DNA of 64,000 nt from Antedon mediterranea (lineage: Eukaryota > Animalia > Echinodermata). Location: contig NC_092670.1 of the NCBI RefSeq assembly GCF_964355755.1, positions 3,834,201-3,898,200 of the forward strand, written 5' to 3'. The position numbers and the translations under genes were made by a program. Below are positions 1-37,316 of this stretch, in pieces; the first letter of the stretch is position 1; every line of letters begins with the position of its first letter. A model generated the notes under the pieces. The model was not told the origin of the DNA, made no database searches, and saw only the letters and a program-made list of their open reading frames with translations.

Positions 1-1832
1 TCAATTTTGCCTTCTGAACACTCGTCTTTTTGCATGTATTGATGACGAAAGAGCAATGCTTCGGGTAGTGTTGGAACCAATTTTGTGTAGATAACAAGGG
101 GTTTGGATAGTACATGGACGTTTCTTAACGGAAGAAAGTAATGCCTTCGAACATCCAATTCACTACCAATCAAATTGTAATCATGGCTATCACGACCCGA
201 CTGCCACGCCTCTCCTGCATCAACTATGGTGCGCCAAACTGCGGCATATGTGTTGTAATATTCTTTTATACTATTTATAATATACCAACAAAAGAAGAGG
301 ATTGTAATAGCTCGTAAAACAGCTTCTTCGTCTTCGCCGTAGTTCGTTATAATACCTATAGTTGTTAGAACAATCACTTGCATAAGGATATATACAATGA
401 TCATTACGTCAAGTGATAGAGAAACTACAAATGTGGTAAGCATAAATGCACGTATAACACTCCATATAAAATACAATGGAATACATATAATAGGACATTC
501 TCGACCTTGCGCAGTACCGGTAGGCCTGCTAAAGATAATTCCAAACACATATTTAAAGATAGATAGTATTGGTTCTACAGTGAAGTAAAGTAGTGGAAAC
601 ATATACCTTAGCAGACGAAATACAGAAACTAAAATGTCCATAATAAAAAAGGCGAAGCGATAAAATATATTTGAAATGTTAGAAGCAAATGGTCTGTCTT
701 TCCAAATCTGACGATTGATCACAAGTTGAAATCGATTCAATATCTGACGGTAAAGACATGTGTACCGGTTGCTGTCAAAGTCTAATCCACAGTCGGAGCC
801 ATCGTTGAAAACGGACAACGTTGCCGGACGAATAGTAATGATCAGCAATATCGAAGACTGACACCATAGAGCGTAATACGAGACGGCGTCAGCGTCAAAG
901 TCAAAGTCATTGGTATTTGCAATAATAACATTTAAAAGAATAACAAATTCACACAGCATAAACACCCGAATGCTTAGTATCCATGCATGTGTATTACCCC
1001 AGTGCAATATACCAAACTTTGCACCTAGAGGTAATGGAGAATGCAAAGTCAACCTTGGTTCGTGGGTATTTCTAGTAACTTCTTGCTGTGATTGGTTATA
1101 TGAAATGTTCGAATGTTTGCGATGGGAGTCCTTTAGAAACACACCAATTAGCAAGGGACAAAATAACATCACTACATAGCAGATCACAATAATAAGTACA
1201 TTCCAGGTGTAATGTATCTGTGCTTTACAACCTAGTCCATCTGCAAAGTTTAAACATAAATACGATGTAGCGAAAAGGTTGTATGCTCGGCTGAAAAGCA
1301 TATTGTCGGAGTTTTCGAAGCAAAACAGATCGGTTTCACTAACATTTAGTATCGCTTTCATTGCAAATATGATATTATTAATAGAAAGGGAACAATAAGG
1401 GTTTAAATTAAAATTCAAATTCACTGTTATCTCTTTAATTTTTATTGTTTTCATAGACAACGTTTTGAAGTTGACTGGATACGTCATCACACTTGCTCCT
1501 ATTGCATCGTTAACCCACTTAACATTATCAAATCCATACCAAGTATGAAATAACTCTTCATAATCATACTCTTCAGTGTTAAAGTTTACAATCGAAATAA
1601 CATCTTTCTTAACCATAGCAACCAGTTGTTCACCGGTGATGGGTTCGCTGTTATGTGTCATAGTTGGTACCTGCATAGCACAAAATGTTATAAGCCTATC
1701 GTCCTTATACCAGTACCTTGTCCAAGAACATGTCTCATTCTTACCAATAGACGAATCCAAATTATCTTCTCCATAAACATTTTCACCTACAATTAATAGG
1801 TGAATGAAAAGACAAATCCAATATGATACCAT
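1..1832 (-). CDS. Uncharacterised signal-peptide multi-pass membrane protein, paralog A (3' end runs off the window)
   Basis: Hand translation from ATG 1832 (MVSYWICLFIHLLIVGENVYG...) is open to position 1, so the ORF track missed it. Shares motifs with 42273-44369 and 49350-51558 (VPTMT..PITGEQL, EPRL.L.SPLP.G, LHWGN, ITIRPATLSVFNDGSDC.LDFD.NRYTCLY, YAAVWRTIV). A 2-nt deletion near 46 shifts the frame relative to paralog C. An alternative in-frame ATG at 1847 follows a tttttttcag acceptor. Confidence 0.85.
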   Translation of the reverse strand, partial: MVSYWICLFIHLLIVGENVYGEDNLDSSIGKNETCSWTRYWYKDDRLITFCAMQVPTMTHNSEPITGEQLVAMVKKDVISIVNFNTEEYDYEELFHTWYGFDNVKWVNDAIGASVMTYPVNFKTLSMKTIKIKEITVNLNFNLNPYCSLSINNIIFAMKAILNVSETDLFCFENSDNMLFSRAYNLFATSYLCLNFADGLGCKAQIHYTWNVLIIVICYVVMLFCPLLIGVFLKDSHRKHSNISYNQSQQEVTRNTHEPRLTLHSPLPLGAKFGILHWGNTHAWILSIRVFMLCEFVILLNVIIANTNDFDFDADAVSYYALWCQSSILLIITIRPATLSVFNDGSDCGLDFDSNRYTCLYRQILNRFQLVINRQIWKDRPFASNISNIFYRFAFFIMDILVSVFRLLRYMFPLLYFTVEPILSIFKYVFGIIFSRPTGTAQGRECPIICIPLYFIWSVIRAFMLTTFVVSLSLDVMIIVYILMQVIVLTTIGIITNYGEDEEAVLRAITILFFCWYIINSIKEYYNTYAAVWRTIVDAGEAWQSGRDSHDYNLIGSELDVRRHYFLPLRNVHVLSKPLVIYTKLVPTLPEALLFRHQYMQKDECSEGKI

Positions 1833-2209
1833 TTTTGTATTCTTCATCTGAAAAAAATTGTCAGTTCAATATACGTCTGAATCAGTGAAACGCCTATAAC
1901 ACAATGGATCATAAATTGCAATCATCTGAAACACTAAAACTACCAAATTTCATAATCTAAATCGCGTGACAGAATGGAAAATACAACATGACGGCATTTG
2001 TTATCTTTCACCTCTAAATATGTTGTTGCAGCAAAATGAAAAATGCAAAAAGGAAATTATAGGATGACTTTCGGAAAGATCGACAACTTTTCTTTTTACA
2101 AACACAAAGCCGGTGGAAAGTTTTGAAAGTCTATTTTCGGAACTAAACAATGGCCAATACAAAAGTAAATGCAATTTCATACAGCTATTGTTTAAAATGC
2201 CTAAATGTA

Positions 2210-4081: not shown

Positions 4082-7000
4082 TTAACACATGGGTTTCATT
4101 TTCTTACTTTCATCTTCATAGTCTAAACGCCACGTCTTTTGACTTTCATTCTGTGCTATAACAGATAAAAAAAAAGATTAATTGATGAAAATAGTTTAGC
4201 CAGAGGACCAAACCTACACAAGATAGTATTGAAAATAAGACGTTTACAATTAATGTACAGTAATACTGAATTATTTATAAATGAAATACTAAAGCTGTAA
4301 AACGAGCAACAACCTTTTAGAACATCCATAGGGCCTTTAAGTCCCAAGAGCTTCATTTTAGCAATGAATGGTTTCATATCTTTCTCACAGATTATGTCTC
4401 TTGCCTCAAGGTCCATAATCAAATTCCATGTATCCTTATAATCCTGGTCTACGTCATTAAAATGTGTATTTATTTTCGTCATATCTTCGTTGGTCAGCTT
4501 TTCTCCAAACTCTATCAACATCTTTCTGTGAGGCGTGAATTTTGAAATGGTAATATCCCTAACATTTGGGAATTCTCCAATTTCATTACGAATTTCTGTT
4601 TCTAATCCAAATTGCTTCGTTAAGTTTATGGTTTCATAAAGCAAAGTTAAATCATGTCTTGTTAGATGTTCTTTCTCCATTAAGAACTTTAGCAGGTGAG
4701 TTGTGCTAGATGCCTTATCTAACTCACCAGTTGTTAGTAGATCTGTATACAACAGTTTCAGTTTATTGAGTAAATTACGACCATCATACCACTTCGAAAA
4801 TGTTACCTCTATGATTTCAAAGTCACGTTGCGAAATTTCTATGAAAATAAAATGAAAATAGAAACAAGACAATCAGTTACAGAAAAAAAGTGGAAATAGT
4901 ATTTATAATCACATGGGAATAGACCACCCAACAATAAAGATGATGAGTAAAATAATAATGTTCATCATGGTTAATAATATTGGCAACTTTATAGAGCAAA
5001 CGAACAATGTACACTTGCAACAATCAAATAATTCGTTAAAATCCAATTCCCGTTATGGTCATGAATAAATTTAACTAGTGTAAATGGTACATACAATTAA
5101 TTTTTTTGGGGTTATATTGCTTCAGTCAAATGTGTTGTAAAAACATACTGAAAATATATTATGCCTTTGTATTAATATTACAATATAATGTCATTATTGT
5201 ATTTCAAGCTTTTTATTTGGGGGGGGGGGGGGGGGGTGCGTAGATGGTAATGACTGCCTCAAAAAGTGCAGAACACACAATGAATAATTGACACATTATC
5301 CTACAAATATTTTCACCTTCATTGAAAAAAAATTAACGTTTTGCGACAGCACAATTTATTTTAATACGGTCAAGATTAATACAAAATAATAGTGTGTATT
5401 TTTCAAAGCAAATGTAGAATCAACAATTGATGATATTGAATTAGATGAATAATATTTAGTTACCATTTCTAGTTGGCTTAGTTTCGAGGGTTTCGCTGTT
5501 TTTGTGCGTTTCGTTGTTTTCTTGAGTTTCGCTGTTTTCGTGGGTTTTGTTGTTTTCTTGAGTTTCGCTGTTTTCGTGGGTTTCGTTGGTTCTACGAGTT
5601 TGACCTGGTTCGGCGGTAGTCAATTCATGATAATCTTGACAATAAAGAAAATAAGTTGAATGCTCACATTAAATGTTTGCAAGATGTTAACTTACATACT
5701 TAGTCCTTTTCTTTTATATAGATTTTTAAAAAAAAGTCAAATAATGTCAATGCAATAAACTTATAAACTTGTTGAGTGGCTAACTAATTTTAGAATTGTT
5801 TCTGTTTCATATTTAGACTAGATTAAGTCTTATGCGATCAAACTTGCATTTGAATTTACTATTATAGTCATTCATATTTTCAGCATGATCAAAGCAATGC
5901 TGTTAGATTGCTTTAGTATGATGAGGTTGCATTGTTAATAATACTCTGTAGTTTGACATGAAATACGCAATTGAGAGGCCTAAATGTATAAACAAATAAT
6001 CAATTTCAAGAATAGTTAAGCAATGTCCCACAAAATAGTAATGTCCATGTCCACATTGTGTTTCTAATTTTAGTAAGAACTGTCTTTACCGTCATTATGA
6101 TTTCGTCGGCGTGATGTTACGCACCGGTACGATAACACACCAATGATGAAGAATAACAATGGTTCTACGCAACACAATATTATAGCTACAAGAAAACTCC
6201 GTTGATCAGCACAAAGTGTAGCAGAAGTAGGCCCAGGACCTGCAACAATTTTAGTGACAACAAAAATGATTTAAATCATCATATATTGAAAATTGTTTCA
6301 GAATTGTTTCACAATTAATCTTATTAAAAAGAAAAAAATTTTATTTACAAAAAAAGATGTGTATGAAAGCACATATTTGTTTAAATACTAACCTGGGTTA
6401 CATTGTCGATCTTTTGTGCGATTACATTTATCCTCTTCCTATATAATATAAATAGAAATAAAATGAAGGTTCTCACATGACTTCGCTATTTGCACTTGCA
6501 TGTCCGGACTCTTATTGTAAACGGGCATTCATCCAAAAGTATGTTTGATTTTCTATCTAGTGGGTATTTGGTACGGGCCATAAATGGATACCGTGCGATT
6601 TAGATTAATTAGCGGACATAATTATGTCTATACAACACTTATTTTGAAAATTACAATGTCTAACAAGATATTGGGAGGCTCTCTGTGACTGAAAGCTGCA
6701 AAATATCAGTTATCATAGGCACTTTTGAATGTTTGTTCAAACACACTAATGTGTAAATTCTTGAAAGCAATTTGCAGTGTTATGTTTCATTATGTTTAAT
6801 GGAATGAAATACGGGGTTATGTTTTTTTTTAACTATAGTTCCATTTTTGTATACCTACAAGTTCATTATCAGCACACGTACGACAAACAAGACAGTATGG
6901 ACACGCGTTTTGGTAAGGACTGTATGTTTTTTCGGGACATCGTTCACAGACAGACTTGGAATCTTTGAAATTAGCTAGATAATATCCTGGAAGGCATAAA

Positions 7001-7113
7001 TCATATTTGACTCCGTTGGGCGTCAATTTAAACTTCGTGTGGTCTGGAGAGCTTCCATATTCTTCTTGGTAGCATATACAAGTTGATTTGAAGTCTTGAA
7101 TGTTCTCGGAAAA
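4082..7113 (-). CDS. TNF-receptor-superfamily type-I receptor with cytoplasmic tandem DEDs (signal-peptide exon not identified)
   Basis: Phase-consistent GT-AG exons: 7113-6859 (CRD: CLPGYYL..CERCPEKTYS..NAC..CLVCRTC), 6438-6393 (EEDKCNRTKDRQCNP), 6239-6090 (TM: FLVAIILCCVEPLLFFIIGVLSY then RRR), 5634-5464 (repeat linker), 4838-4314 (two DED-like folds), 4155-4082 (AQNESQKTWRLDYEDESKKMKPMC*). Open frame throughout. Confidence 0.85.
4314..4838 (-). CDS. Tandem DED-DED exon of receptor 1 (525 nt, phase 1-1)
   Basis: LKLLYTDLLTTGELDKASSTTHLLKFLMEKEHLTRHDLTLLYETI and ISKFTPHRKMLIEFGEKLTNEDM...LIMDLEARDII align by eye to the two DEDs of caspase-8/cFLIP-type prodomains; the RxDL motif is degenerate. 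Confidence 0.8.
5480..5590 (-). repeat. Coding 18-bp tandem repeat in the receptor 1 linker exon (NETHEN/SETQEN)
   Basis: Repeated gtttcgctgttttcgtgg / gttttgttgttttcttga units, in frame. Confidence 0.85.
6859..7113 (-). CDS. TNFR cysteine-rich-domain exon
   Basis: CxPGY...CxxCPxxTYS...CxxCxxC pattern typical of TNFR CRDs; 255 nt, phase 0-0, canonical splice sites. Confidence 0.9.
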
Positions 7114-7194
7114 CTAAAAAATAAAAGGTTATCATTCAATAAAAACAAGTAGGCATTTTATTAGGGAGATGTGAGTGTGTTTTCTTTTTTATTT

Positions 7195-7242
7195 TTAAAT
7201 GCGCCTTGAGCACTCTGGAGTGGTATGTGCGCTATAAAAATC

Positions 7243-7283
<41 letters not shown>
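7195..7283 (+). mobile_element. L2/CR1-type LINE (or derived SINE) 3' tail with (TTA)n
   Basis: gcgccttgag...gcgctataaaaat stem followed by an (ATT)n microsatellite tail. Confidence 0.6.
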
Positions 7284-8864
7284 GTATGGTGAAAATATTT
7301 ATCCTGTTTTTTATGTAACTAACCATAAATACTTCAGTATGTCCAAACCATGTCCCAGGCTGCCCGTAAGTTACCAATGAACACATGATGACTGCACACG
7401 ATACACATAATGTGTATTTAAACAATATCATCTTCTACTGCAGGTAATCTGTTGTTCAATTCAATTTCTTTTTATTTCGGAAAAATCATCCATATTAATA
7501 AACGTATAAACAGAAAAAAAAAATAAAAAATCGTAAACTCTAAACTTAAGTATATAGAATGCTTCTCCATCTACAATACATTTTGGAGTTATGGAGCATA
7601 TTTTTGAAAACACAAACAACAAGGATGTTACCACTATTCAACATACGTTGCATAAAACCATAGGTAGATTTTCGCATGTACTCATTAAAGGAAGGGACAC
7701 CATGTTCAATAAACATTGCACTGGCACTACTACTTCTAGAGACAGTTGTGAGGAAACATATCCAAGTTAGAAAGAAGCATGTTCTACAGTTCTAGTACTA
7801 GTTACAGCACAGGTACAGATATTAAAAACATGTAGAATATTAAAGGCAGATCAATACAATGGTAAAATGCTGGAAACTAGATATTGTGTCTTGAAAAGTT
7901 GATAGCTGCCAATGCTATAACTGAGTGTAATGTTAAAATCAAAATGGTGGAGACTAAAGGAATGGTAAAAAATGGCACCTAAAGTTTAATACATTCTGTA
8001 ACTAAACAATAACAAACAAAATAAGCTAAAAAAAAATAATCTTAATATTATCTTAATATTATATTGGAGCTAAAACCAACTGACAAACAAAACCACTACT
8101 ATTGGTTTGAAATACTAATTTGTCATAAACAAGTTGCTGCCACGAATATTAATATTTTTACTGTAAGTCAAAAAGATTGCTCATGTGTGGTACTAGTCTA
8201 CCTATATTATGTTGTATTGTTGTATTAAATCTTACCAGAATATCAAATAGTTATTACGTATTCCACGAAGTACCGGTACACGCAACGTAGAACCTATATC
8301 TTAGATTTAAAACAACTCGGTCATCTAACTATTACACAAGCCTACTTTTTTTCTCCAACCGTTTGTAACCGATAGGTTCATGTAGCATAGAGACAGATTA
8401 GGGGTACAACAGTCGTTGTATTGAACAAACAAGAAACGCTATAAAACAAACACAATGATGTTCTATTGTTGAGAAATGTCAAATAGAAGCATACCATTAT
8501 CAGGATATATTGTTTTAGTATAGCGCCCCTATACTAAAAATCGGGGTTGTCTGCAAACAGTAGCGTTTTAAAACGTTGTTAAAAGAAGGAAGAAGGAAGG
8601 AAGAAAGAAAAAAGAAAGAAGAAATGTAGAAACGACTGAAAAACAAAACCTATTCAGCCGTCGAAGCTATATAGCAGCAAGTTTGTAAAACATTGCAACT
8701 AGCGTTGGAAGCGAAAAGAAGTTAGTAAACAAAACATGGGAGGAGAACTAAGTTGTGAAACTATTTGAGACTTAAGCAGACTAGTGAGATAATTATGTAA
8801 GTGGGCTTTTATTATGGATGATGATACACCAAAATGTTCTTTACATATTCATAGTATAGATTTG

Positions 8865-11085
8865 ATTTTAAGAACATACTAAAGTATCATTTGTCTCATA
8901 AATAAAATATTAAAGAAAGTAAGTTTGAAAAAGCATTTGAATTACTGATTAAATTGACAAATATAATTCTACCTACTTTCATTGTTAATTTTATTCACAG
9001 CGATACACGTCACATTAATATCAGGCTGCTCACGGCAAACCAGTCACAGCAATATAAACTTTTAAAAGCAATGTCTAGACAAATAAATCAGTTCTGTTCC
9101 AGCCCGGCGGAATCATCCCCCTGTTAAAAGTCCTACCAGTGTTATGCGGCTTACAAAATACAACAAGTAGCAGTCTCTAAAGCATACAGGTGAATACTTA
9201 AATTAAAACATTACCTCCCTACTTTTAGTCGCTATTGAACTGTATAATGTATACTTTTATCCCATATAGTTTTAGACGTAATAAAGCGTTTTGTTATTGG
9301 ACAGTTTAAGAAAAGCAACATTTGATTACAAAATGTCACTAAAAGTGTTTGAAAAATGTATTTGATTTGCTGATGGATCTCAGTATAAACAATTAAAATA
9401 ATAAACATTCTTGAAAATTACTGGTAAAGCGATGCACATGAAGGTAACAGACGTGTTATTAGTAGTAATTAAAGAGCTATTCAAGCTAATAATATAATAT
9501 ATACTTTTAATAATACAAATTGTGTTTCATATCAATACTATAGAATTCCTGTTCCAAGCCATAATTTCCAATACAGGTCAGCGGCCCAAGGTATAAATGC
9601 AACATTAATTCATATATCTATTTCTGTTGTTGTACAGACACAAAATTATACACATTTTCAATAGAATAATATTTCCGAAAGTCACACTTCTAAAACGCTT
9701 TCCTGACAATAACCAATTAAATTAATTATAAAGGGTGTTGTCATGTTTAAGCATAATTGATGGTGACGTGCTTGAATGGGTTTATCGGTTGATTTGGGGC
9801 AGTGTGCCGTGCACCTTCTTCATTAGAGCTGCTTCTGTCTGTTCATGTGCTGATGTGTAACCATTGTAAATTACTTTGCGCTTACATAAATTTGATTTCC
9901 TTAAACTACTGTACCATAGGCTTACTAAAGAACAAAAACAAAAATGCACTTTCGACAACTGAGTGATAAAATAAATTCATAATAATAGTGTCCACGTAAA
10001 AAACGGTTCAATCTTTATAAATGGAGTCGAGTTTGCCTTTTCGAAATTAGTAATTTACACTGCTTTCGCCGAAACATAACTAACCCCTGCACTGTGTCTT
10101 TCTATTAACACATGGGTTTTCATGTTCTCATTTTCATTGCAATTATAAATACGTTCATCTTCATAGTCGAAACACCACGTCTTTTGAGATTGATTGTGTG
10201 CTATAACAGATAAAAAAAGGGATTAATTGATTGAATATAGAGGACAGAACCCACAATATGGTATCGAAATTAATATTTTTACGATTAATAATCAGTAATA
10301 TTGAATTATTTAAAAATATAATAGCAAAGTTACCTTTTAGAACATCCACAGGGCCTGTAAGACCTAAGAGCTCCATTTTAACAATGAATGGTTTCATATT
10401 TCCTTCACGGATTTCTTTTCTTTTCTCAAGGTCCATTATCAAATGCCATGTATCCTTATAATCCTGGTCTGCGTCATTAAAATTTGTATACATTTCCTGC
10501 ATATCTTCCTCGGTCAGACTATCACCAAACTCTATCAACATCAGTCTGTGTAAAGTAAACTTTGAAATGGCAATATCGCTAACATTTGGGAATGCTCCGA
10601 TTTTATGTTTAATTTTAAATGCCAATCCAAGTTGTTCCGTTACTTTTATGGTTTCAAAAAGCAAAGTTAAATCATGTATTGATAGATGTCCTCTGTTCAT
10701 CAAGAAATTTAGTAGCTGAGTTGTGTTATTTGCTTTATCTAACTTACCAGTTGGCAGGAGGTCTGTATACAACAGTTTCAGCTTATTGAGGAAATGACGT
10801 TCATCATACCACTGTGAAAAGGTTACTTTGATACATTCAAAGTTAAGCTGATAAATTTCTATGAAAATTAAATAAAGATAGAAACACTACAAACAAGGAA
10901 AAAAAAGCAGAAATACTATTTATACTCACACTATTACTATTATGGAAATACACCACCCAACAATAAGAATATGATTACAATAATAAGTTCATCATATTTG
11001 ACTAGTTCTATTGGTAACTTTAGGCCTATAGAACAAATAATTTTATTATTCAATCAAATCCAATTGCCAACAAAAAATTATGGTC
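8865..11085. repeat. Segmental duplication copy 2; partner ~2490-5070
   Basis: Colinear with copy 1, including the DED exon and the downstream flank. Confidence 0.9.
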
Positions 11086-12496
11086 ATCGCGTGGACGCGA
11101 CGCTATAGTTCACTATGTCGGTCGGTCGGTCATCGCGTGGACGCGACTCTATAGTTCACTATGTCGGTCGGTCGGTCTGTCTGTCGGTCCGGTATCACTA
11201 TGCGTTTTATCGCTTTCTGACCTTATCTTGATATCAGTTTAATCTAGCTAAGTCAATTTTTCACAGTATATTCCTTATGGCCAGGAATCGATGTGGTTAT
11301 GTTTTCACGGTGCGCAATAAAAAATTACGTGGTCTACGCACGATTTAACGAAATCACGTTTGTAATCATATCTTCACAACCATGAATCACAATTAAATAA
11401 AATTTGGTACTCATAAATTTCAGGGCATAAATCATCATATGGCAATACAATTACGTGCGTAGCGCATGTAACGCATGCGTACGCATGCTTAAAATTTTCA
11501 AAAATTTATTTTCGATGAAATAAGAGTACGTTTCAGGCAATTTTAAGCGTTTACAAAATTGCCATGAGTGCGCAGATTTTTGCGCGCGCACTGCGCGTTA
11601 AAGTTGTTACGCACTCTTTTTGCCCGATTTCTGTTTTCTTGACTTACTTTTCAACTAGAAATTACGTTATTCGAGCACGTCAAAAGTGTGACAGGCTACG
11701 CACGTGTAAATTAAAAAAATATAACTGTTTTTAAACATTTCAACATTTTTAAACATGTTCAGTAATTTCGGTCAGTTGGTAGGTTGGTCGGTCGGTTGGT
11801 AAACACTAATGAGCACGCGCGACTGCAGCCATCTATATGGCCTTGTTTTAAATATTTCTGCAGTAAAATATGTTGTAAAACATAGGTCGATTACAAAGAG
11901 TTTATTCGTTTAGTCAAATTAGAATTACATGAGTAATATTTAGTTCTTCTTACCATTATTTGTTGGCTTATTGGTAGTTTTGTTCTCTTGGGTGTTCACC
12001 GAGTTGGTTGTAGTTTCATCAACAATACCGACCGGCATACTGCCAGGAACAATTGTTGGACTTTCTGGTGATCTGGAATCCTCAACAGTCATGTTTTCTA
12101 CTAGTTGTTGTGAGTTGCTTGTACTGCTGTTACCAGACTTCTTTTTGAAATAGTAACATCTAAAAGAAATACATTTTTTTGTGAAAGTCGAGCCTGTGAG
12201 ACTCAATGATTAACTAGTCTGACGATAAAGCAACACAAAAGTACTGACTGCGCTTGGCTATAAAATCTGATACAAATAGACCTTCGTCATTTTCACAACT
12301 GAAGTTGCTTTAAACATTGAATATAAAAGTATTCATTACGATAAAACATACGTAATAAATGCGATCGTAACTACCACCAGAAGAATGATGCATAGAATAA
12401 TTGAAAGAAAGGGCCAATTGAATGATGTATCATCATTTGCGCCAACATCATCATTGTCAATAACGTCACCAATACCATCTTTGACGTCGTCTTTAC
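10055..12496 (-). CDS. Receptor 2: TM - Ser/Thr-rich linker - tandem DED (ectodomain probably the HYR exons at 24690-25994 and 41272-41422)
   Basis: Exons 12496-12352 (stalk + TM NWPFLSIILCIILLVVVTIAFIT, phase 1-2), 12159-11954 (CYYFKKKSG...NKPTNN, phase 2-1), 10858-10334 (525-nt DED-DED, paralog of 4314-4838), 10200-10055 (terminal). Open frame with canonical splice sites. Confidence 0.85.
11084..11848 (+). mobile_element. Non-autonomous Helentron/DINE-1-like (HINE) element
   Basis: cgcgtggacgcgac subterminal inverted repeat, (GTCG/GTCT)n microsatellite, and 3' gcacgcgcgactgcagcc...ggccttgtt end. Near-identical inverted copy at 27329-28044. Confidence 0.75.
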
Positions 12497-17855: not shown

Positions 17856-20800
17856 TTAGTTGGTCGCATTCTCAAGAAGGACCAGTTTGTCAATTGGTCT
17901 CACAAGCGTTGATGTGTTTGTCTTTACTTTCACTGACCGTACAAGTCCATCCTTTTGGTTGCTGTACACTTCAAGAACTCTTCCCAATGGCCATGAACTT
18001 TGTGGTGTGTTTTCGTCAAGAACAAGCACAACATCGTCTACAGCAAAGTTTCTCTTTTGCACATTCCATTTTTGTCTTTGTTGCAGTGACGGTAAATACT
18101 CCCGTACCCATCGTCGCCAGAACACATTTGATAAGTACTGTACTTGTTTCCATCGTCGACGATACATATCCTCCTTTGAAAAGTTACCAGGAGGTAAGCT
18201 GTTCCCTCCTCGCAACAGCAGTAAATGATTCGGAGTTAAAGGTGTCATGTCACGAGGGTCATCCGATATCTTAGTAATCGGCCGACCATTAACAATAGCC
18301 TCTGCTTCACACATTAAAGTGTTTAGGCCTTCATCATCAAGCACTTGTTGTTTCAGCACAGCCATCATGACTTTCCTCACTGTCCGAATACAGCGCTCCC
18401 ATACTCCTCCATGATGAGATCCCATTGGTGGATTGAATAACCATTTCACATTTCGTTGCAACAAGAATTCATGGAATTGTCCTTGATTCCACTCTTTAAT
18501 TGCTTTATTCAGTTCCTTCTCTCCCTTTTTGAAGTTTCCTCCATTATCTGATCGAATCTCTTCTGGCTGTCCTCTTCGTGCTATGAATCTTCTCATAGCA
18601 TTCATGAATGACTCCGTGTCAAGTGAGTTTGAAACTTCGATGTGGATTGCTCGTACAGTGAGACACGTGAAAAGGACACCATATCTCTTCACATTTGACC
18701 TCCCCCTTTTTACTTCGAACGGGCCGAAGCAGTCAACACCAACGTACGTGAACGGTGGCTTCGAAGGTGTTACTCGGTATTGCGGAAGTGAAGCCATTTT
18801 TTGTTTCCCAACTGATGATTGGCGTCTCTTACAGCTGAAACACTCGTTCAGAACTTTCTTCACTGCAGTACGTGCATCAATCGGCCAGAACTTCTGTCGA
18901 ACTAGGGACAGTGTGTATTCTAGTCCACTGTGTCCTGATAAATGGTGATAGTATGTAGTAATGAGCTTCACTATGTGGTGATTCTTTGGTAGGATTATCT
19001 GATGTTTCATGTCACCGTTGATAGGTGAATTTTGAAGACGGCCCCCTACTCTGATCACTCCCTCACTTAAGATGGGATCGAGTTTGTAGATCTTGCTGGA
19101 TTTTGGTAGTGCTCGTTGCTTTTTGGTATTGCAGGGTTGAGATAGGCTTACACGCTTCAGGCAAACTTGCTCGTCTTCAAAGCATTTCTGTACATGCTTC
19201 GTGATAGCAATTTCAGCACCTTTCATCTCCAAAACATTGATTGGATCAACTGTGTCATTTCTATTAAACGAAACATCGTCTCCAGCCTTACGCCTGCGAA
19301 CCACTTCTCGTAACTTTTCTTTGTACCTCAAAATCCATGCAAACGACTTCTTCAACTTCTCCCATGATGAGTAGTAGTTAATGACTGATGAAATCGAGTC
19401 AATTACATTTATACCAGTAGCACAGACTGTGGATTTTGCCTTTACCTCTGGGTCATCTTGTGGGATTTCACCCATGTTTGCTGGTCTTTGTGGCCATGTC
19501 CTCTCAGGTTGCTTTAGGAATTCTGGACCTTCCTTCCAACGTTGATTGATCAATAATTCATTTACTGTCATACCTCTTGATGCTTCATCTGCAGGGTTGT
19601 ACAGGCTGTCATTGAATTCTAGATTACAGTAGTCCTTGAACTGTGTTGACAACTCTTCATGTGAATCAATGTAGTTAGCGCAGTGTGTTGATCCAGAGTT
19701 CTTCCTTCCCAATGGGCCGTTGACAACCCAGCCAAATAGTGTTCTAGTGGCAAATGGACCACCATCGTGGCATTCGCGTACTTCCAGCGGTTGTAGCAAT
19801 TCTGGCACATCACTTCCAATGAGAATACCAATATCTGCATTTATTTTATCTACTTTAATCCCAGCTAGGTGAGGCCATTTGTTGATGTCATCTGGAGTAG
19901 CGATCGTATCGGTAGAAATTGGTAGGGTTTGCACTGAATAGACGTTTGGAAGTAAGACGGAATGTCCATGATTTAAATCCAAAATCTCCAACTTTGTAAG
20001 TTCACACTGGATTGGTCTATTTACTCCGTTCATGGTTGTCAATGATAAGTCTACAGTATTCGATGATATCCCTAATTGCTTTAGTATACCAGTGGTGCAG
20101 AAAGTTGTGTTGGATCCATTATCAAGAAATGCATAGGCTTCTACAAGCTTGGCACTTCCTGGAGCCTTGACTCTCACAGGTACGGCAGCAAGACCAGTAA
20201 CGGTTGATGTGCTTCTTGATGCCGACATGTTGACCTGTTCACCACTGAAAGTTGCTGGAGACGTCTGAACTGGTTGTACAGCAACAGTACCAGCATTACT
20301 TGTAGTCTCACCTTTGGGATGTAAATATGTTGAGTGTTTCTTCGTGCATCCGGATATTTTGCAGAAACTTTGCTTTTGACAATCTTTCACAAAATGTCCA
20401 ACTGTAAGACAGTTGATACAGATTTTCTTGTCATTTACACATTTCCATCGGTCGTTGAGTGACTTCCGTCGGAACTGCTCACATCTGGAGAGCCAATGGT
20501 CCTCACAGCATAGCGGACACGTTGGTTGTGATGTTACAGGTGTGTTTGACTGAGAATTGTGAACGGCATAACTGCTAGATTTGTGGTTGGTCGATAATTT
20601 ATCCAAATTTGGAGAATTGGTAGACTTCACTGGCTCTATTTTACCAAAAACTGGATGAGTTGCTACCCTAGCCTTATCGGTGACAAACTTGGTAATATCC
20701 TTAATATTCACATCTCTCTTTTCCTTTACGATGATAGTGTCAACCACTTCCCGCCATCTTAGCCTTAGTCGATACGGAAGACGTTCAATGATTTTCCGAA

Positions 20801-21809
20801 GATTGTCTGGATTATCTAGCTTGCTAAGGTATCCAATTTCCTGAAGTGTATTTGCACAGCTTGTTAGTTGAGTAGAGAAGCGTTGTAGAGCTATGCCATC
20901 CTCGACTTTGATAATCGGCCAATCCAGCAAGAGTTGAACGTGGGCAGCAGCTATCTTGTATGCTTGTCCATATCTTTCCTTTAGCAAGCGTCTCGCCTCA
21001 ACATATCCTTTATCATCACTCATCGATAGACAGCTTCTCATCAACTCTTGTACAGCCCCAGTCGTGTACTGTACCAAGTAGTGCAGTCTTGCACTCTGGC
21101 TCACAGTTTTGTTCTCAACAAGATGTTTGAATGAAGTGACAAACTCGCAGTATTCAGCAGGATTGCCACTGTATAACTTCATTGACGGGTTAGGCAAGGT
21201 AAGCGCAGTAACACTTTGTTGCTGTTGTTGGACGATCTGTCTCAATGCTTCATTTTGCTTATCTTGTGCTCTCATCATTGTGGATGCCAGTCTATCTATG
21301 GCATCGATCTGCTTGTGTTGGTGGAATACAGGAGCATCCAGATTAAATGGTTGGAACACTGCTGGTTGAGGTGTACGCTGCCACAGCATAGGATTCCCTA
21401 ACAGTTCTGTCTCCTCCTTTGGAACATATTCTGATCGATAATCAGGAGCAAATCGTTGGTCGGGCAGATTTCCTGATGGAAGTTTGGGAGTGGTTGTTTC
21501 AATTTGAAGCTTTGGTAGAGAAAGATCTTCGAGTTCACGATCTACTGCCTCATCCTCGTCCTGTTCAGCTTCGTTGTAAACTTTGTCGGCTGCTTCAATT
21601 GCCCCGATTTCAATTTGCAATTCCACATCAGCCTTCTTTTGTTTGAGCACCAATTCCTGCATTTCCAAGTCATGCATTTCTTTCTGTCTGGCAGCTCGTT
21701 CCCTTAATGCTGCAGCTTCAGCCTTAACCCGGATCCTAGATCTGCTGCTCGATGATGAGCGTTTGGAGCTTACGCAACTCACTGAATCACTTGGTTCAAC
21801 GTCAAACAT
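17856..21809 (-). CDS. BEL/Pao Gag-protease-integrase polyprotein (1317 aa) with in-frame RT/RNaseH deletion
   Basis: Gag, three Cys-His knuckles, protease AFLDNGS, then ...EFNDSLY|NPADEASRG..., integrase HHCC (HHLSGH, CFSC) and DDE core (GVDCFGP, SDNGGNF, GGVWER). No YxDD and no DAS motif. Confidence 0.92.
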   Translation of the reverse strand: MFDVEPSDSVSCVSSKRSSSSSRSRIRVKAEAAALRERAARQKEMHDLEMQELVLKQKKADVELQIEIGAIEAADKVYNEAEQDEDEAVDRELEDLSLPKLQIETTTPKLPSGNLPDQRFAPDYRSEYVPKEETELLGNPMLWQRTPQPAVFQPFNLDAPVFHQHKQIDAIDRLASTMMRAQDKQNEALRQIVQQQQQSVTALTLPNPSMKLYSGNPAEYCEFVTSFKHLVENKTVSQSARLHYLVQYTTGAVQELMRSCLSMSDDKGYVEARRLLKERYGQAYKIAAAHVQLLLDWPIIKVEDGIALQRFSTQLTSCANTLQEIGYLSKLDNPDNLRKIIERLPYRLRLRWREVVDTIIVKEKRDVNIKDITKFVTDKARVATHPVFGKIEPVKSTNSPNLDKLSTNHKSSSYAVHNSQSNTPVTSQPTCPLCCEDHWLSRCEQFRRKSLNDRWKCVNDKKICINCLTVGHFVKDCQKQSFCKISGCTKKHSTYLHPKGETTSNAGTVAVQPVQTSPATFSGEQVNMSASRSTSTVTGLAAVPVRVKAPGSAKLVEAYAFLDNGSNTTFCTTGILKQLGISSNTVDLSLTTMNGVNRPIQCELTKLEILDLNHGHSVLLPNVYSVQTLPISTDTIATPDDINKWPHLAGIKVDKINADIGILIGSDVPELLQPLEVRECHDGGPFATRTLFGWVVNGPLGRKNSGSTHCANYIDSHEELSTQFKDYCNLEFNDSLYNPADEASRGMTVNELLINQRWKEGPEFLKQPERTWPQRPANMGEIPQDDPEVKAKSTVCATGINVIDSISSVINYYSSWEKLKKSFAWILRYKEKLREVVRRRKAGDDVSFNRNDTVDPINVLEMKGAEIAITKHVQKCFEDEQVCLKRVSLSQPCNTKKQRALPKSSKIYKLDPILSEGVIRVGGRLQNSPINGDMKHQIILPKNHHIVKLITTYYHHLSGHSGLEYTLSLVRQKFWPIDARTAVKKVLNECFSCKRRQSSVGKQKMASLPQYRVTPSKPPFTYVGVDCFGPFEVKRGRSNVKRYGVLFTCLTVRAIHIEVSNSLDTESFMNAMRRFIARRGQPEEIRSDNGGNFKKGEKELNKAIKEWNQGQFHEFLLQRNVKWLFNPPMGSHHGGVWERCIRTVRKVMMAVLKQQVLDDEGLNTLMCEAEAIVNGRPITKISDDPRDMTPLTPNHLLLLRGGNSLPPGNFSKEDMYRRRWKQVQYLSNVFWRRWVREYLPSLQQRQKWNVQKRNFAVDDVVLVLDENTPQSSWPLGRVLEVYSNQKDGLVRSVKVKTNTSTLVRPIDKLVLLENATN

Positions 21810-21852
21810 CTTAGAGATAGATTATTGCAGTAGAAGAGAGATTTTAAACTTA

Positions 21853-24689: not shown

Positions 24690-24933
24690 CGCTGACGATA
24701 ACTTTAAATGTGCAGTTTCCTATGTTATTTGCATGGTCAGTAGGGCCTACTGTAGCAATAGACAGTGGTTTGTCCAGGATTAAACAAAGAACCAGATGAA
24801 CGCGTACAAGAAGCCGTCAGATCAATGTCAATGTTGTCAACGACACTTGGGTCATTCCAGGTTGCCATAGCTGGTTCTGATGATGACACATGAAAATCAT
24901 CTGGACAACTAAGTATAGGACTTGACGAATCTT
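24690..24933 (-). pseudogene. HYR (hyalin repeat) domain exon, frameshifted near its 3' end
   Basis: EDSSSPILSCPDDFHV...ATWNDPSVVDNID...CTRSSGSLFNPGQTTVYC / TDHANNIGNCTFKVIVS. Canonical splice sites, 244 nt. Frame broken at tacagtaggcccta (~24741-24754). Confidence 0.85.
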
Positions 24934-25221
24934 CTGTAAAGTGAAACAGAATTTACTGAAGAAGCATAAACAGTGATAGTAAAACATACCGATTGCGTTT
25001 TTATTATGAATGCGTTTAGGTTTAAAACATACAATATTCAAATGAAACATATTATGGCCTAGAATACACTTTCATTATTTCTTACCTACTTTCAACTCGA
25101 AGGAGGTAAATGCTGTCTTCTCCTCAACATAGTCTCCTTTGAAATTTAATGTTAGGCCTACTCGCGGAAGTTTACTTATATTCTGTTTGTATTTCAAGCA
25201 AAAATCATATATAAAGCTTAC

Positions 25222-25484
25222 CAACAACAAAGATGAAAGAAAGATTGCATCATTGCCAGCGTCATCAGAGACAATACATTCAATTGTGTACGAGCCACGT
25301 GATAATGTTACCGGTGATGTTGTTATTGTGACTTCTGGGGTATATCTTCGACAAACTGGTAACAATGTACTATCAACGTTGTCAGTAGCTGTTGGGTACA
25401 TCCATGACACTTGAGTGACAGAACTGATTGGTGACACGCCTACATAGAGGTCATCGCTACAGTCTATAGTCGGTGGCGTATTAT
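25222..25484 (-). pseudogene. HYR domain exon with 1-nt deletion near the 3' end
   Basis: DNTPPTIDCSDD...VSWMYPTATDNVD...GSYTIECIVSDDAGNDAI; 263 nt. The paralogous fragment at 46571-46616 shows the intact ICSFKISV ending. Confidence 0.85.
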
Positions 25485-25760
25485 CTTGAAGTCAAAACAA
25501 GAAATAAACAATAATCATGGCGTCAATTACTATAATAGGGTGTGGGTTCAGGATGTATAAATAATTAATTGTGAACGATCAAATTGCTAATCAACTTCTT
25601 ATATTAATTTGAACTTAACGCCATTTTTAAAAGGGGTTCACAAGTACACTTCAGCAAAATACATTAAGTCAACACGTCCAGAGGCACCGTTAGATCCATT
25701 TGCTATTAAACACAAGTACCAATAAATTAAATTAAAATGAATTATTTGATATTCACTCAC

Positions 25761-25994
25761 CAATTACATCTATAACAAATGTACAGCTACCAGAATTGCC
25801 AGCAACATCAATAGCGCGATAAGTAACATGATTCGAACCTATAGCAAAAGATGACCCAGACGATGGAGTACATATTGCGACCAGATTACTGTTCAGGTTA
25901 TCGGCAACTTGTGGTGGGTTCCAGTTAACCAAAGAGGAGCGTGTTCCAGCCGTGATGTCATTCGGACATCTCACGCTAGGATTCTCTCTATCGA
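25761..25994 (-). CDS. HYR domain exon (intact, 234 nt, phase 1-1)
   Basis: DRENPSVRCPNDI...VNWNPPQVADN...CTPSSGSSFAIGSNHVTYRAIDVAGNSGSCTFVIDV is a classic HYR consensus. Confidence 0.9.
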
Positions 25995-26145
25995 CTTAAT
26001 TTGAAAATAAATTACAAATCTTAGTGGTGAGGCAAGTATTTTGTGATCCTTCAATATATCTTATTGTTACCAGTTACTTCAAAGTGTTCTTTATATTAAC
26101 AACACTGCTCTATGATTACCTATAGTAATCACACTATACTTTGTA

Positions 26146-28044: not shown

Positions 28045-28198
28045 ATGTGAACCTGCATAATGCGATAAAGTATTGTTGGCACATAATATTAAATCCCGTC
28101 ACAGTATTATCTTGTATCCTTTAACATTTGGAATGAGTTGGTGCATGGTAAGATATAGGAATATGGATTATGAAGGGGATGAAAAAACGTGAAAAAGA

Positions 28199-29050
28199 TA
28201 GCACAATTTCTCAAATAGGTATACCGTACGTACAATTTCTCAAAGAAGTAGCACAACTTTCGGAATGGATTGCACAATTTCTCAAAGAGGTAGCACAATT
28301 TCCCGAATGGTTAGCACAATTTCTCAAAGAGGGAGCACAATTTCCCAAATGGTTAGCACAATTTCTCAAAGAGGTAGCACAATTTCCCGAATGGTTAGCA
28401 CAATGTCTCAAAGAGGTAGCACAATTTCCCAAATGGTTAGCACAATTTCTCAAAGAGGTAGCACAATTTCCCGAATGGTTAGCACAATTTCTCAAAGAGG
28501 TAGCACAATTTCCCGAATGGTTAGCACAATTTCTCAAAGAGGTAGCACAATTTCCCAAATGGTTAGCACAATTTCTCAAAGAGGTAGCACAATTTCCCGA
28601 ATGGTTAGCACAATTTCTCAAAGAGGTAGCACAAAATCTCCCGAATGGATTGCATAATTTCTCAAAGAGGTAGCACAATTTCCGGAATGGTTAGCACAAT
28701 TTCTCAAAGAGGTAGCACAATTTCCCGAATGGGTAGCACAATTTCTCAAAGAGGTAGCACAATTTTCCGAATGGGTAGCACAATTTCTCGAATGGTTAGC
28801 ACAATTTCTCAAAGAGGTAGCACAATTTCCCGAATGGTTAGCACAATTTCTCAAAGAGGTAGCACAATTTCCCGAATGGGTAGCACAATTTCTCAAAGAG
28901 GTAGCACAAAATCTCCCGAATGGTTAGCACAATTATTTCTCAAAAAGGTAGCACAATTTCCTGAATGTTGCATATTGCACAATTTCTCAAAGAGGATCAC
29001 AATTTTTTTAATGGATTGCACACTTTCTCAAATGTAGGTAGCACAATATT
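28199..29050. repeat. 42-bp (2 x 21-bp) minisatellite, about 20 units
   Basis: Unit gcacaatttctcaaagaggta-gcacaatttcccgaatggtta. Confidence 0.95.
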
Positions 29051-33514: not shown

Positions 33515-33895
33515 TGTAACTTTCTTATTTCTGACAGTGATACGTGGGAGTACTACGTACGTTATTATAACCTTTAAGTTGTGTTAATGTTCTTGACTTG
33601 GATATAAAAATTATTTGTTAGGCTATTTAGTTAAGTGTTTCGATCAGCTAATTGGCCATAAGCCTGCCTAGCCTAGCTAGCCCTCGTGTAGTGCTACTAG
33701 TAGTAGTTTGACTGTATGTATGTATCTGCTATGCTGTTTTGCGGGGTTGTTTGCACACGCAGCTGTGCTGCCTTGTGCGTGTTTTCATTGAGTTTATTTG
33801 TGTTTCAGACTTTACCGAAGAATAAAGAACGGTTAAAGCAACTACCACGAGTTTGTGTATCATTGTCCGAATTAGTAAAGTGTAATCCCTTAATT

Positions 33896-36800
33896 ATGGA
33901 GGAAAATACGTTCATCGACCTCAGCTTCGAAGAGCTCGAGGTCAAACACCGTTCGTTTAAAGGTCATCTAACGAGGGCAAGGGACCGCTTTACCCGTGTT
34001 CTCGACCGAGACGAACCGGAACTGGTTAAAGTGGCATTCGACCATATACAAAAGAAAATTCGAAAGATAACCGACTTACTTGATGCTATGGATGTTGTCA
34101 AACCACCTGATGAGACTAACACTACTACACGTCTACATGCAGAACTAATGTCAGCAGCTGATGACGTGGAGAAAAAATATCAAGAGTACAGAAGGTTTTC
34201 AAGGAATGAGCAAACCGCTCATTCTTCCCAAGGTGAGCCAACTGCAGCAGGAAAAGATGAAGAGATGATAAAATTAATTAAAGCTCAGTCTGACATGGTG
34301 GCACAGCTTACAATAAAATTGAACGGAAACGGCTCAGACAACAAACGGCCTTCAATTAAAACACCAGGACTCCCAGCCCCACGGTGGGATGGATCTCCAA
34401 GAAACTTCCATTCTTGGCATGTACGAATTGACCAATACTTCGAATCTGCTGGTATTAAAGGTGACCAAGAAAAATTGATGGTTTTGCTCAATGGTGATGC
34501 GTTACCCAAATCTATTCAAGATCATATTGCTGATTGTTGTTCTGTTGAAGGTGATAATGGAGCTTGGGCTCGTCTGAAGGAAAAGGTCCCGACTTCAGCT
34601 ATTGTTCGTGATGTTATTCTGACACTTCAGATGTTGAAGCCAATGAAGTCAGCAACAGCAAAGGAAATGCGGCCTGTTTTGAATGGACTCACAGACTTTG
34701 CAAGACGAATGCGTGAACTTGGAAAAGAATTAGAACTCTCATCGTCAGTAGTTGTTGAACTAGCGAGTCAGAAAATCGATGCTGAATTAAGTTTCGAATA
34801 CATGCGGCAGATAAAGCAAGATGAGCCGACAATACCAAGTTTGATCTCATTCTTACGAAGTGAAATGGAAGCAAGGGAACGTCGAGAGCAACCTCATATG
34901 TTTGGCGATCAAAATGCATCTACTCATCACATTACAAGACAAATTAGTACACTTGAAAATACTACCCAATTCCCACCGAAATCTAATTTTAAAGGTGCTG
35001 AAACTAGCACGGATGATTGTCCTTTCTGCACTGACCACTCACGTCACTTGATTATAAAGTGCCCTAATTTTAACTCAAAATCTAACGAAGAGAGACGGTT
35101 AATGATAATGGAAGCTAGAAGATGTTTCCTATGTTTTCGCACAAATCACAGTGCGTTCAGATGCCCCAGACATGACAAAAAACGCTGCTCTGTATGTCAA
35201 CTATTTCACCACCGACTGATTGCTTGCCCACCCAATCGCACTTTGAGAATTAACAACGCAGATGGTTTCTGTCAAAGCCAAATGTCACCAAAAACACAGG
35301 CGGGAGCGAACACAAATCTACGGCCAATTGTACGCCACGAAAACCAGGTAGGAACCAACTTAGGTCAGAATCCATTCATATATTTGCCAGCATCAACTAA
35401 CCAAACTGTTTCAAATATGAATTTAGATAAAACGTCAATAAATTCACCTCAGATAGTTCAGGCGGGAGCAAACCCAAGTCTACGTCAGACTGTAGCAGGG
35501 CCCAGTCAAAATCCATTCGTGTCTTTGCCTCCATCAACGAACCAGACAATTTCGAAAATGAATTCGACGAGGCATGCCGAACGTCGTCGCTATTCACCGA
35601 CTACATATGTCGAGATACAAGACAACGAGGGCAATTGGCAGAAAGCTGTCGCATTCTTTGATAGTGGTGCTGATACCACTCTGGTCAAGTGCTCCACCGC
35701 TAAAAGTCTAGGCTTAAACGGACTGCCCTTTGTATTTACTTATGGCGTGGCCGGAGGGGGCATCGTACAAGAAAACAGTGCAAGGTATCAACTTCGAGTC
35801 AGACCACTACAGGAATTGAAAGCATACGACTTGGTTGCAATTAGTGTACAAAAGCCTGCCCATGATAGCCCATCTGTTGGCGAAGATATCTTTGACGAAC
35901 ACCCTCATTTAACGGTAGTTAAAGAACATTTGCCTGCGGAGGAAGCCGAGATCGACTTACTCATTGGATACGACTATCAAAGTCTTACTACACCACTGAA
36001 AACAATACGTTCATTAACTGATCCTGATACATCGCCAACTGCGGCAAAAAGTGCTCTAGGTTGGACAATTATTGGACAAACCATTCCAAAGCCAACTTCC
36101 AATGTCATCAGCCACATCACAAACATAACTTTCATGGACGACTCCCAGCTTTTATATACATCCGATGTCATTGGAGTTAAACCAACAACCTTGTGTACAT
36201 GTACAGATAAGGAGATCGCTGAATCTCAGTTTATCAAACATTGTAGAAAAAATCTCCAAATAAATGAGAAGGGCCGCATTACCGTGGAAATGCCATGGAA
36301 GGATGGATTTCCTGAGTCTCTAGACTGTAATAGAGTACAAGCCGTGACGAGGATGATTTCACATGAGGCTAGGTTGCTAAAAAACAAGCAAATCAATGAC
36401 TACAATTATGAAATTCAAGCTCTCCTTGACAATGGATTTACGCGTGAGCTTACGCCAAGTGAAGACAGAAATGAAGGATGGTACCTTCAACACCATGCTG
36501 TCCATCAGCAACACAAGACAACGAAGATTCGAATTGTATGGAATTCCGCTGCTAAGTTTAACGGGTTGTGTCTCAACGACGGATTCCACAAAGGGCCAGA
36601 TTTCCTAAACTCACTTGTGACATGCTTTCTATACTGGCGGAAGTACGGAATTGCCGTAGCTGGAGACGTTCGGAAGATGTTTAACCAGATTGCATTATCA
36701 GTGCGTGATCAAAAGTTTCATCGTTTTGTCTGGCGATTTGGTGATACCTCAAAGGATATTAGGTATTTTCAATGGTTGCGTTTGCCGTTTGGGGACAAAC

Positions 36801-37316
36801 CAGCACCGGACATTTCTATGATGGCCGTTCGTTTACTAGCTGAGGCTAACGCCGATTCAGATCCTATAGGGGCTCTTAGGATCAAAGATCGTATGTACAT
36901 GGATGATATAACCGACTCATTTACAAAACCGAACGATGCAGTTGAGGCAGTTGAGCAGGTTACTCGTATTCTAAGAAAGGGATCTTTCGAAATCAAAGTG
37001 TGGCATTCTAACCATCCGATGGTAGACCAGTGCCCTGAAGAGAAGCACACACGTGTTTTAGGCCACTTGTGGAATAAGCTAGATGACACTGTAACAATTC
37101 AACTTGATAAATTCGATGAAGAACAGACTCCACTTACCAAAAGAAAAGTTTCCAGTCTTGTTGCCAGGTTGTGGGATCCATTAGGAATGTTGAGCCCTGT
37201 GAGTATTCGTTATAAAATTGGACTCCAGGAGATTTGGGCAGCTAGGCTTGATTGGGACGACGTGTTTGATGATGAGCAAACAACTATGTGGAAAGGTTTT
37301 ATAAAGGAGATGAATC
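33896..37316 (+). pseudogene. BEL element 2 gag-protease-RT (interrupted by MITE at 37317)
   Basis: Real start is MEENTFIDL at 33896 (upstream ORF-track residues are LTR). Cys-His knuckles, DSG protease, RT with GDVRKMF, LPFG and YMDD. Confidence 0.9.

What the first reader, a model, noticed from the sequence alone, without database searches (positions are those of the whole stretch)
4082..7113. Intact TNFR-CRD / TM / DED-DED gene
Six exons splice in phase with canonical sites and no stops, giving a TNFR-family receptor whose tail has two DEDs instead of a death domain. The DEDs lack the RxDL charge-triad motif (QFGL) and DED2 lacks the FL patch, so a decoy (FLIP-like) role is as plausible as activation (inference).
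Basis: partly seen in the sequence, partly recalled or inferred. Interest (0 to 1): 0.8.

Follow-up and report, generated by a model that had tools for sequence, protein, structure and literature searches.

The report
Death receptor with built-in caspase adaptor
An intact gene, likely from a feather star, joins the outer part of a TNF-type death receptor to two death-effector domains instead of the usual death domain, so it would likely recruit cell-death enzymes directly, without the normal adaptor; no transcript of this gene has been seen yet.

Summary
Confirmed and extended. The six minus-strand exons splice in frame. The tail folds like the caspase-8 tandem DED (pLDDT 96.7, Z 18.4). The only ectodomain relative found (Antedon mediterranea XP_071943975, 63% over 145 aa) ends in a death domain, so this is likely a tail swap. 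The tail belongs to a large crinoid tandem-DED family carried by NLRs, an RLR, Rel, Roc-COR proteins and caspases. None of its 150 representatives showed a TNFR domain. RxDL and the DED2 FL motif are missing family-wide (RxDL in 0 and 1 of 176 modules), caspases included, so their loss is not a decoy signature. A complex model docks the tail on a crinoid caspase-8-like tandem DED (0.66, controls 0.00) away from the FL patch. The pass may reflect likeness to solved DED filaments, and the pose could be a capping one. The DED exon is protected from frameshifts. No RNA of this gene was seen. Best reading: a FADD-bypassing death receptor (0.42); cap or decoy 0.26.

The parts
7324..7431 (-).
   Evidence: top-scoring donor with the most hydrophobic ATG-exon among the phase-0 candidates; tblastn of P0009, 52% over 33 aa
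6859..7113 (-). Exon 2: TNFR cysteine-rich region (with exon 3, about 1.5 CRDs; Cys 48, 50, 76, 92, 95, 107, 110, 113, 116); alternative donor at 6855
   Evidence: Pfam TNFR_c6 E 0.0026; 76% identical to P0009, whose best PDB hits are HVEM and OPG ectodomains, E about 1e-4
6393..6438 (-). Exon 3: end of the CRD (Cys 126, 134); phase-1 donor; alternative acceptor at 6434
   Evidence: a contig of run X5 from a paralog reads from exon 2 straight into an exon-3 homolog in the 6859/6438 register (loose end at 6862, read by hand)
6090..6239 (-). Exon 4: short stalk, predicted single TM helix (about residues 151-172, with an internal Glu-Pro), basic stop-transfer; phase 1-1
   Evidence: Kyte-Doolittle 19-mer mean 2.77; background control; no homolog found
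5464..5634 (-). Exon 5: polar linker, predicted cytoplasmic, built on a 36-nt (12-codon) repeat; phase 1-1
   Evidence: its 3' end is homologous to the linker exon of the paralog
4314..4838 (-). Exon 6: tandem DED cassette (residues 244-418), one symmetric phase 1-1 exon
   Evidence: Pfam DED; AF2, Foldseek and VIA-align; 150 relatives
4082..4155 (-). Exon 7: 24-residue tail and stop codon (4084-4082)
   Evidence: same frame kept in the paralog
10334..12496 (-). Tandem paralog: unrelated TM exon 12496-12352, linker 12159-11954, tandem-DED exon 10858-10334 (68% aa), last exon from 10200; open in frame, no CRD exons; closest relative of the cassette

Best explanation
This open seven-exon gene encodes a predicted single-pass TNF-family receptor whose death domain was likely swapped, by exon shuffling, for a tandem-DED cassette, so ligand-driven clustering would likely let it dock caspase-8-like tandem DEDs directly and activate them without FADD. 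Shown: the open exon chain, the TNFR-like ectodomain, the tandem-DED match, and a DD-tailed relative with the same ectodomain. Inferred origin: a local duplication of a linker-tDED-tail unit (about 6 kb spacing) put one copy behind TNFR signal, CRD and TM exons; all joins from exon 3 onward are phase 1. Inferred mechanism: a TNF-family ligand, probably shared with the DD sister receptors, clusters the receptor. The clustered tails then act as a membrane seed for crinoid tandem-DED proteins through FL-independent type II/III faces, bringing caspase domains together. Expression, ligand and sign of output are untested.
For: Open frame, canonical splice sites, signal exon. P0009 is 63% identical over 145 aa, then diverges into TM and a death domain (Pfam Death E 1.3e-4, 22.4 bits against a 22.6 cut-off; TNFR1 DD top Foldseek hit at E 0.069; DD clusters in the Atlas). 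No DD exon in the window, and the next downstream gene starts near 1835. Constraint on the tDED exon: no frameshift or stop; paralog differences at 3 of 42 family-core positions against 53 of 133 others, Fisher p 4e-5. CRD: 7 of the 8 displayed differences to a paralog are at third codon positions (only part of about 15 were shown). The same cassette heads two crinoid caspases with His/Cys motifs present (P0046 SHG/QACQR, P0115 SHG/QSCMG). Complex model with the second module of P0046: ipSAE 0.66, best of 3 controls 0.00; runs agree in >=95% of contacts; partner pLDDT 92. The mark was reached by 39 of 65 solved eukaryote pairs without a like older complex and by 2 of 126 unrelated pairs. The interface (DED1 74-81 including QFGL, DED2 110-117) avoids the FL patch. 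It resembles, by my mapping, the type III-II-III site that lets FL-mutant caspase-8 still assemble (PMC11074299). Precedent for TNFR shortcuts: amphioxus TNFR-caspase with cDNA support (PMC2575513).
Against: No transcript joining these exons was seen. dN/dS of the tDED exon is 0.63 (95% bootstrap 0.40-1.07), not clearly below 1, and the exon is no more conserved in nucleotides than the flanks (81% against 80-88%). The complex pass may come from likeness to solved caspase-8/cFLIP assemblies. It used a caspase from another crinoid genus, has a small interface (42-44 contacts), had no death-fold controls and cannot say which family member binds. In the model the tail uses its IIb/IIIb faces, whereas FADD needs IIa, IIIa and Ib for activation (PMC11074299). 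The tail's own 'a' faces look degraded (E11/T47, Gly57 to Glu). Its nearest relatives are solo, Roc-COR, LRR and ubiquitin-fused modules; caspase modules rank 89th and 93rd of 177 by tree distance. The TM has a central Glu-Pro that does not fit the Fas phi-P-x-phi motif (PMC7591462).
Confidence: 0.42

Rival explanations
1. Membrane-tethered cap or decoy: the receptor shares ligand with its DD sister receptors. Its tandem DED binds a growing DED assembly through intact 'b' faces but cannot extend it, so it dampens caspase activation as FLIP-S does.
For: No catalytic domain. Polar DED1 a1/a4 groove, seen in only 9 of 164 modules and shared with its close subfamily; Gly57 to Glu on the IIa face. 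The modelled pose uses the tail's IIb/IIIb faces, the side opposite to the one FADD needs. FLIP-S acts as a dominant negative with tandem DEDs alone (PMC4558505).
Against: The direction of a single pairwise model may be arbitrary, and my surface mapping rests on sequence offsets.
Confidence: 0.26
2. Young shuffling product without function: the exons are intact because they are recent or because each half was kept in another context, and the chimeric mRNA is not made or does nothing.
For: No ortholog with this architecture in the databases. dN/dS interval includes 1. The TM exon has no homolog. A high-copy repeat lies about 110-280 bp upstream of the ATG. The likely ectodomain exons of the neighbouring paralog are frameshifted.
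Against: The two copies differ at 19% of bases, yet both keep the 525-nt exon free of indels and stops, with the core spared. Seven exons, a signal peptide, a TM with basic stop-transfer and an in-frame 12-codon repeat all stay open. The CRD exons have no other partner in the window.
Confidence: 0.2
3. Non-caspase output: the tail recruits other carriers of the same cassette (the tDED-Rel protein, TIR or DD adaptors, NLRs or the RLR) and drives NF-kB or inflammatory signalling rather than death.
For: The cassette is on about 24 NACHT, 24 Roc/COR, 4 TIR, 2 DD, 1 RLR and 1 Rel protein, against 2 caspases (hand count). The Rel and RLR modules are closer in the tree (ranks 24 and 40) than the caspase modules.
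Against: Only the caspase pair was modelled, and it passed. Tree closeness does not give binding specificity.
Confidence: 0.12

Closest known systems
TNFR-superfamily death receptors (Fas, DR4/5, TNFR1); closest sequence Antedon mediterranea XP_071943975.1 (P0009)
   Same: Signal peptide, CRD ectodomain (63% over 145 aa to P0009), single predicted TM, death-fold tail
   Different: Tail is a tandem DED, not a DD; shorter stalk; TM and linker unrelated to those of P0009; FADD not needed in principle
Amphioxus TNFR-caspase hybrid (Brafl1_82667; PMC2575513, passages read)
   Same: TNFR ectodomain fused by shuffling to a downstream apoptotic module, a 'direct connection' shortcut
   Different: Carries the recruiting prodomain, not the protease, so it could activate or cap
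Caspase-8/10 prodomain, c-FLIP-S and viral FLIP MC159 (tandem DEDs)
   Same: Same tandem-DED fold (Z 18.4 to caspase-8/cFLIP assembly chains, 14.8 to MC159)
   Different: All are cytosolic; about 16% identity; no RxDL, no DED2 FL; here membrane-anchored behind a ligand-binding ectodomain
Crinoid tandem-DED connector family (Anneissia, Antedon; e.g. caspase-8-like XP_033126911, DDX58-like XP_033103796, Rel XP_071955940)
   Same: Same cassette, 22-64% identity, same motif losses
   Different: No member found with a TNFR domain or a convincing signal-plus-TM receptor layout before the cassette

Membership tests
TNFR superfamily | Extracellular cysteine-rich domain(s) | tested here: met
   Pfam TNFR_c6 E 0.0026, below the gathering score because the exon cuts the repeat; 76% identical to P0009, which hits HVEM/OPG structures at E about 1e-4; Cys spacing
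TNFR superfamily | Type I topology: signal peptide and single TM | tested here: met
   By hydropathy and homology only; the TM has an internal Glu-Pro
TNFR superfamily | Binds a TNF-family ligand | not testable with these tools
   No ligand known; no genome held
Death receptor (DD-containing TNFR) | Cytoplasmic death domain | tested here: not met
   Tail hits DED only; no DD exon in the window
TRAF-binding TNFR | TRAF motifs in the tail | tested here: inconclusive
   No match to two recalled consensus patterns; the patterns are loose
Tandem-DED proteins (caspase-8/FLIP type) | Two packed DED folds | tested here: met
   AF2 pLDDT 96.7, pTM 0.91; Z 18.4, rmsd 2.2 A over 164 residues
Tandem-DED proteins (caspase-8/FLIP type) | E/D-RxDL triad and DED2 FL patch | tested here: not met
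   QFGL and T-H; also unmet in nearly all 176 crinoid modules
FLIP (c-FLIP / v-FLIP) | Cytosolic tandem DED with RxDL/F114 that inhibits caspase-8 | tested here: not met
   Motifs absent and the protein is predicted membrane-anchored; inhibition itself untested
Expressed functional gene | Spliced transcript across all exons | tested here: inconclusive
   No RNA holder listed; only a paralog's exon 2-3 join seen

The most novel reading that the evidence does not exclude
Feather stars have rewired innate-immune and death signalling around one lineage-specific, RxDL/FL-independent tandem-DED plug shared by NLRs, an RLR, Rel, Roc-COR proteins and caspases. This gene is the first natural adaptor-free death receptor: a TNF receptor that plugs straight into that hub beside DD-tailed sisters with the same ectodomain. 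The neighbouring TM-tDED paralog shows the cassette being grafted onto more than one membrane anchor.
Probability: 0.35. Interest if true: 0.82.

Novelty: new variant of a known kind. Interest (0 to 1): 0.62.

Why it matters
In the textbook pathway a death receptor speaks DD to FADD, and FADD speaks DED to caspase-8. A natural receptor with a tandem-DED tail removes that relay. With a DD-tailed relative that shares its ectodomain, it gives a matched pair for asking what FADD adds and whether a membrane-held tandem DED seeds or caps a caspase filament. It also points to an expansion of a DED cassette in crinoids, not found in my literature searches, that lacks the motifs thought central in mammals. 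That tests the recent structural claim that type II/III faces suffice for assembly.

Tried and rejected
No whole genome is held, so ligands, the species' own caspases and synteny could not be searched.

RNA: no RNA holder listed. Run X5 (guessed RNA, another sample) covers paralogous CRD and DED copies but none of this gene's TM or linker exon. That is no evidence on expression or on presence/absence. DNA contigs X1-X4 match the exons with 0 differences but may be the source sample, and they break at 5543-5553 inside the linker repeat, so no single contig bridges the two halves.

Rejected: 8236 as a coding donor; the 6855/6438 splice (out of frame); a DD or CARD tail; a DD exon in the window.

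Homolog search with the TM exon: none of 30 candidates (weak evidence). Of 150 tDED relatives, 3 had a hydrophobic stretch before the cassette; two are Roc/COR proteins and one (P0062) looks like a mis-predicted N-terminus. Pfam tables showed only the best 5 families per protein.

My splice-site scorer gave low scores to the true sites and found no paralog exons, so I dropped it. The first TM-exon control missed the true exon and was loosened afterwards. The single-sequence fold of P0009 was poor outside the TM and DD (mean pLDDT 49). The ESM Atlas could not take the tDED exon. Three look-ups of earlier scan findings returned nothing.

Literature: 10 searches. The exact term 'TNFR-DED' gave 0 papers, and no listed title or abstract start described a DED-tailed receptor. 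The library lacks most subscription papers, and no supplements were read; the amphioxus domain tables could list such a combination.

Full report
OBSERVATION. The window is AT-rich animal DNA. A scan of all ATG-to-GT exons from 10100 to 7150 instead picked 7431-7324: a hydrophobic N-terminus with a phase-0 donor, 210 bp upstream of exon 2. The seven-exon model is 442 aa: signal peptide, 11 ectodomain cysteines (about 1.5 CRDs), one hydrophobic 19-mer (mean 2.77) followed by basic residues, a polar linker built on a 36-nt repeat, a 175-aa cassette and a 24-aa tail. Every join from exon 3 onward is phase 1.

ECTODOMAIN. The CRD exon found one relative among 2 candidates of 150-2000 aa: Antedon mediterranea XP_071943975 (P0009), 76% identical. 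P0009 also matches the new signal exon, and overall 63% of 145 aa. Its best PDB hits are the HVEM and osteoprotegerin ectodomains (E about 1e-4). After the CRDs it has a different stalk and TM and a death domain: Pfam Death E 1.3e-4, just under the cut-off; top Foldseek hit TNFR1 DD, E 0.069; DD clusters in the Atlas. No DD-like exon exists in the window, and the next gene downstream is an unrelated multi-TM ORF. Read sets show at least two more CRD paralogs at about 83-85%. One contig of run X5 continues from exon 2 directly into an exon-3 homolog (19 of 27 bases and 4 of 9 residues match; read by hand). This shows that a paralog is spliced at this junction and favours the 6859/6438 register. 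It is not evidence that this gene is expressed. The organism is inferred from best hits to be a feather star close to Antedon.

TAIL. Pfam gives DED only. A family profile hits cFLIP, caspase-8 and FADD in its top 17 of 20 PDB rows, weakly (best E 0.009). AlphaFold2 on a 47-row alignment gives pLDDT 96.7, and the model matches caspase-8/cFLIP tandem DEDs at Z 18.4, rmsd 2.2 A over 164 residues. Pfam scans of all 150 (best 5 families shown in the last three; hand count) put the cassette on about 24 NACHT proteins, 24 Roc/COR proteins, 4 TIR, 2 DD adaptors, 2 caspases, 1 RIG-I-like helicase and 1 Rel protein. None showed TNFR_c6. Three had a hydrophobic stretch upstream, none a convincing receptor. 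The nearest module is a tandem paralog 6 kb upstream (68% aa). It has its own unrelated TM exon, a partly homologous linker and the same tail frame. Duplication of a linker-tDED-tail unit, with TNFR 5' exons in front of one copy, is the simplest origin (inference).

IS IT UNDER SELECTION? Between the two copies the tDED exon has no indel in 525 nt, where the flanks (10 frameshifting indels in 554 nt) predict about 9.5 (P about 8e-5), and no stop (P 0.02 by simulation). Differences fall on 3 of 42 family-core positions against 53 of 133 others (p 4e-5). Against this: dN/dS is 0.63 with a bootstrap interval of 0.40-1.07, and exon identity (81%) equals flank identity. In the CRD exon 7 of the 8 displayed differences to a paralog are at third positions (about 15 exist, only 8 were shown). 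These tests cover both lineages, not this copy today. A TM-like phase 1-1 exon appeared in 1 of 65 background tiles, and that tile is a real multi-TM gene (filter set after one search missed the true exon).

MOTIFS AND MECHANISM. RxDL occurs in 0 of 176 DED1 and 1 of 176 DED2 modules. Phe at the DED2 FL site occurs in 7 of 176, including the FADD-like P0152 but neither caspase. Both caspases keep His and Cys motifs. Mammalian FLIP has both RxDL motifs and binds through F114 (PMC4558505, passages). Caspase-8 with the FL motif removed still assembles with FADD and cFLIP through a type III-II-III site (PMC11074299, passages and section 9). The complex model of the tail with the second module of Anneissia caspase-8-like P0046 scored 0.66 against 0.00 for the best of 3 unrelated controls; contacts agreed in at least 95%, partner pLDDT 92. 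The mark was reached by 39 of 65 solved eukaryote pairs with no like older complex and by 2 of 126 unrelated pairs. The alignments were not used, like complexes are solved, the partner is from another genus, and the pass does not pick a family member. The interface uses the QFGL loop and DED2 110-117 on the receptor, and positions 32-42, 54-62 and 146-148 on the caspase; it does not use the FL patch. By sequence offset to FADD (my mapping) these are IIb/IIIb on the receptor and IIIa/IIa on the caspase. FADD needs IIa, IIIa and Ib to activate caspase-8, and the tail's own 'a' faces are unusual: polar groove in 9 of 164 modules, Gly57 (75% conserved) replaced by Glu. I commit to direct, FADD-independent recruitment with activating output (0.42), because a ligand-clustered, membrane-held tandem DED presents a multivalent seed. 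Rivals: cap or decoy 0.26, non-functional shuffle 0.20, non-caspase output 0.12.

COMPARISON AND NOVELTY. It is a TNFR-superfamily member by CRD and predicted topology, not a death receptor in the strict DD sense, and not a FLIP. The closest precedent is the cDNA-validated amphioxus TNFR-caspase shortcut (PMC2575513, passages). A review of DED proteins lists only FADD, DEDD, DEDD2, PEA-15, FLIP and caspases-8/10, later adding TIPE2 (PMC4558505). A TNFR evolution preprint describes tails with or without a DD (10.1101/2021.12.26.474206, passages). Passages of PMC3196919, PMC2246300, PMC7591462 and 10.1101/2025.07.21.665930 were also read; none described a DED-tailed TNFR. Other papers were seen only as search listings. 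Ten searches found no such receptor, within a library that lacks most subscription journals and without reading supplements.

VERDICT. A real, intact and apparently undescribed receptor architecture: a new variant of a known kind, seen in one genome and without transcript evidence. Interest 0.62.

Noticed in passing
window 9862-12496 (-): Second TM-linker-tandem-DED gene, open in frame, with an unrelated TM exon and no CRD exons; its ectodomain is not identified.
   Followed up: partly
window 24690-26000 and 54600-59950 (-): Three HYR exons plus EGF and CUB exons on the same strand upstream of the paralog's phase-1 TM exon. Two HYR exons and one EGF exon look frameshifted. Possibly a broken EGF/CUB/HYR-TM-tDED receptor.
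   Followed up: partly
window 45-1835, 42273-44381, 49350-51573 (-): Three related intronless multi-TM ORFs (39-61% identity over the aligned pieces); the two that were scanned have no Pfam hit; the copy at 49-51 kb is split over three frames.
   Followed up: no
window 17856-21821 (-) and 33707-40559 (+): Two Pao/BEL-type retrotransposon remnants (DUF1759, integrase or RT domains).
   Followed up: no
proteins P0048, P0066, P0046, P0152 (public crinoid records): Unusual crinoid architectures with the same cassette: tDED-Rel, tDED-RIG-I-like helicase, four-DED caspase-8-like, and a DED-DED-DD FADD-like adaptor that keeps FL-like patches.
   Followed up: partly
window about 7540-7715 and 7180-7290: High-copy repeats just upstream of the start codon and in intron 1, including an (AAT)n tract.
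   Followed up: no
window 28152-29037: Long tandem repeat open in several frames on both strands.
   Followed up: no
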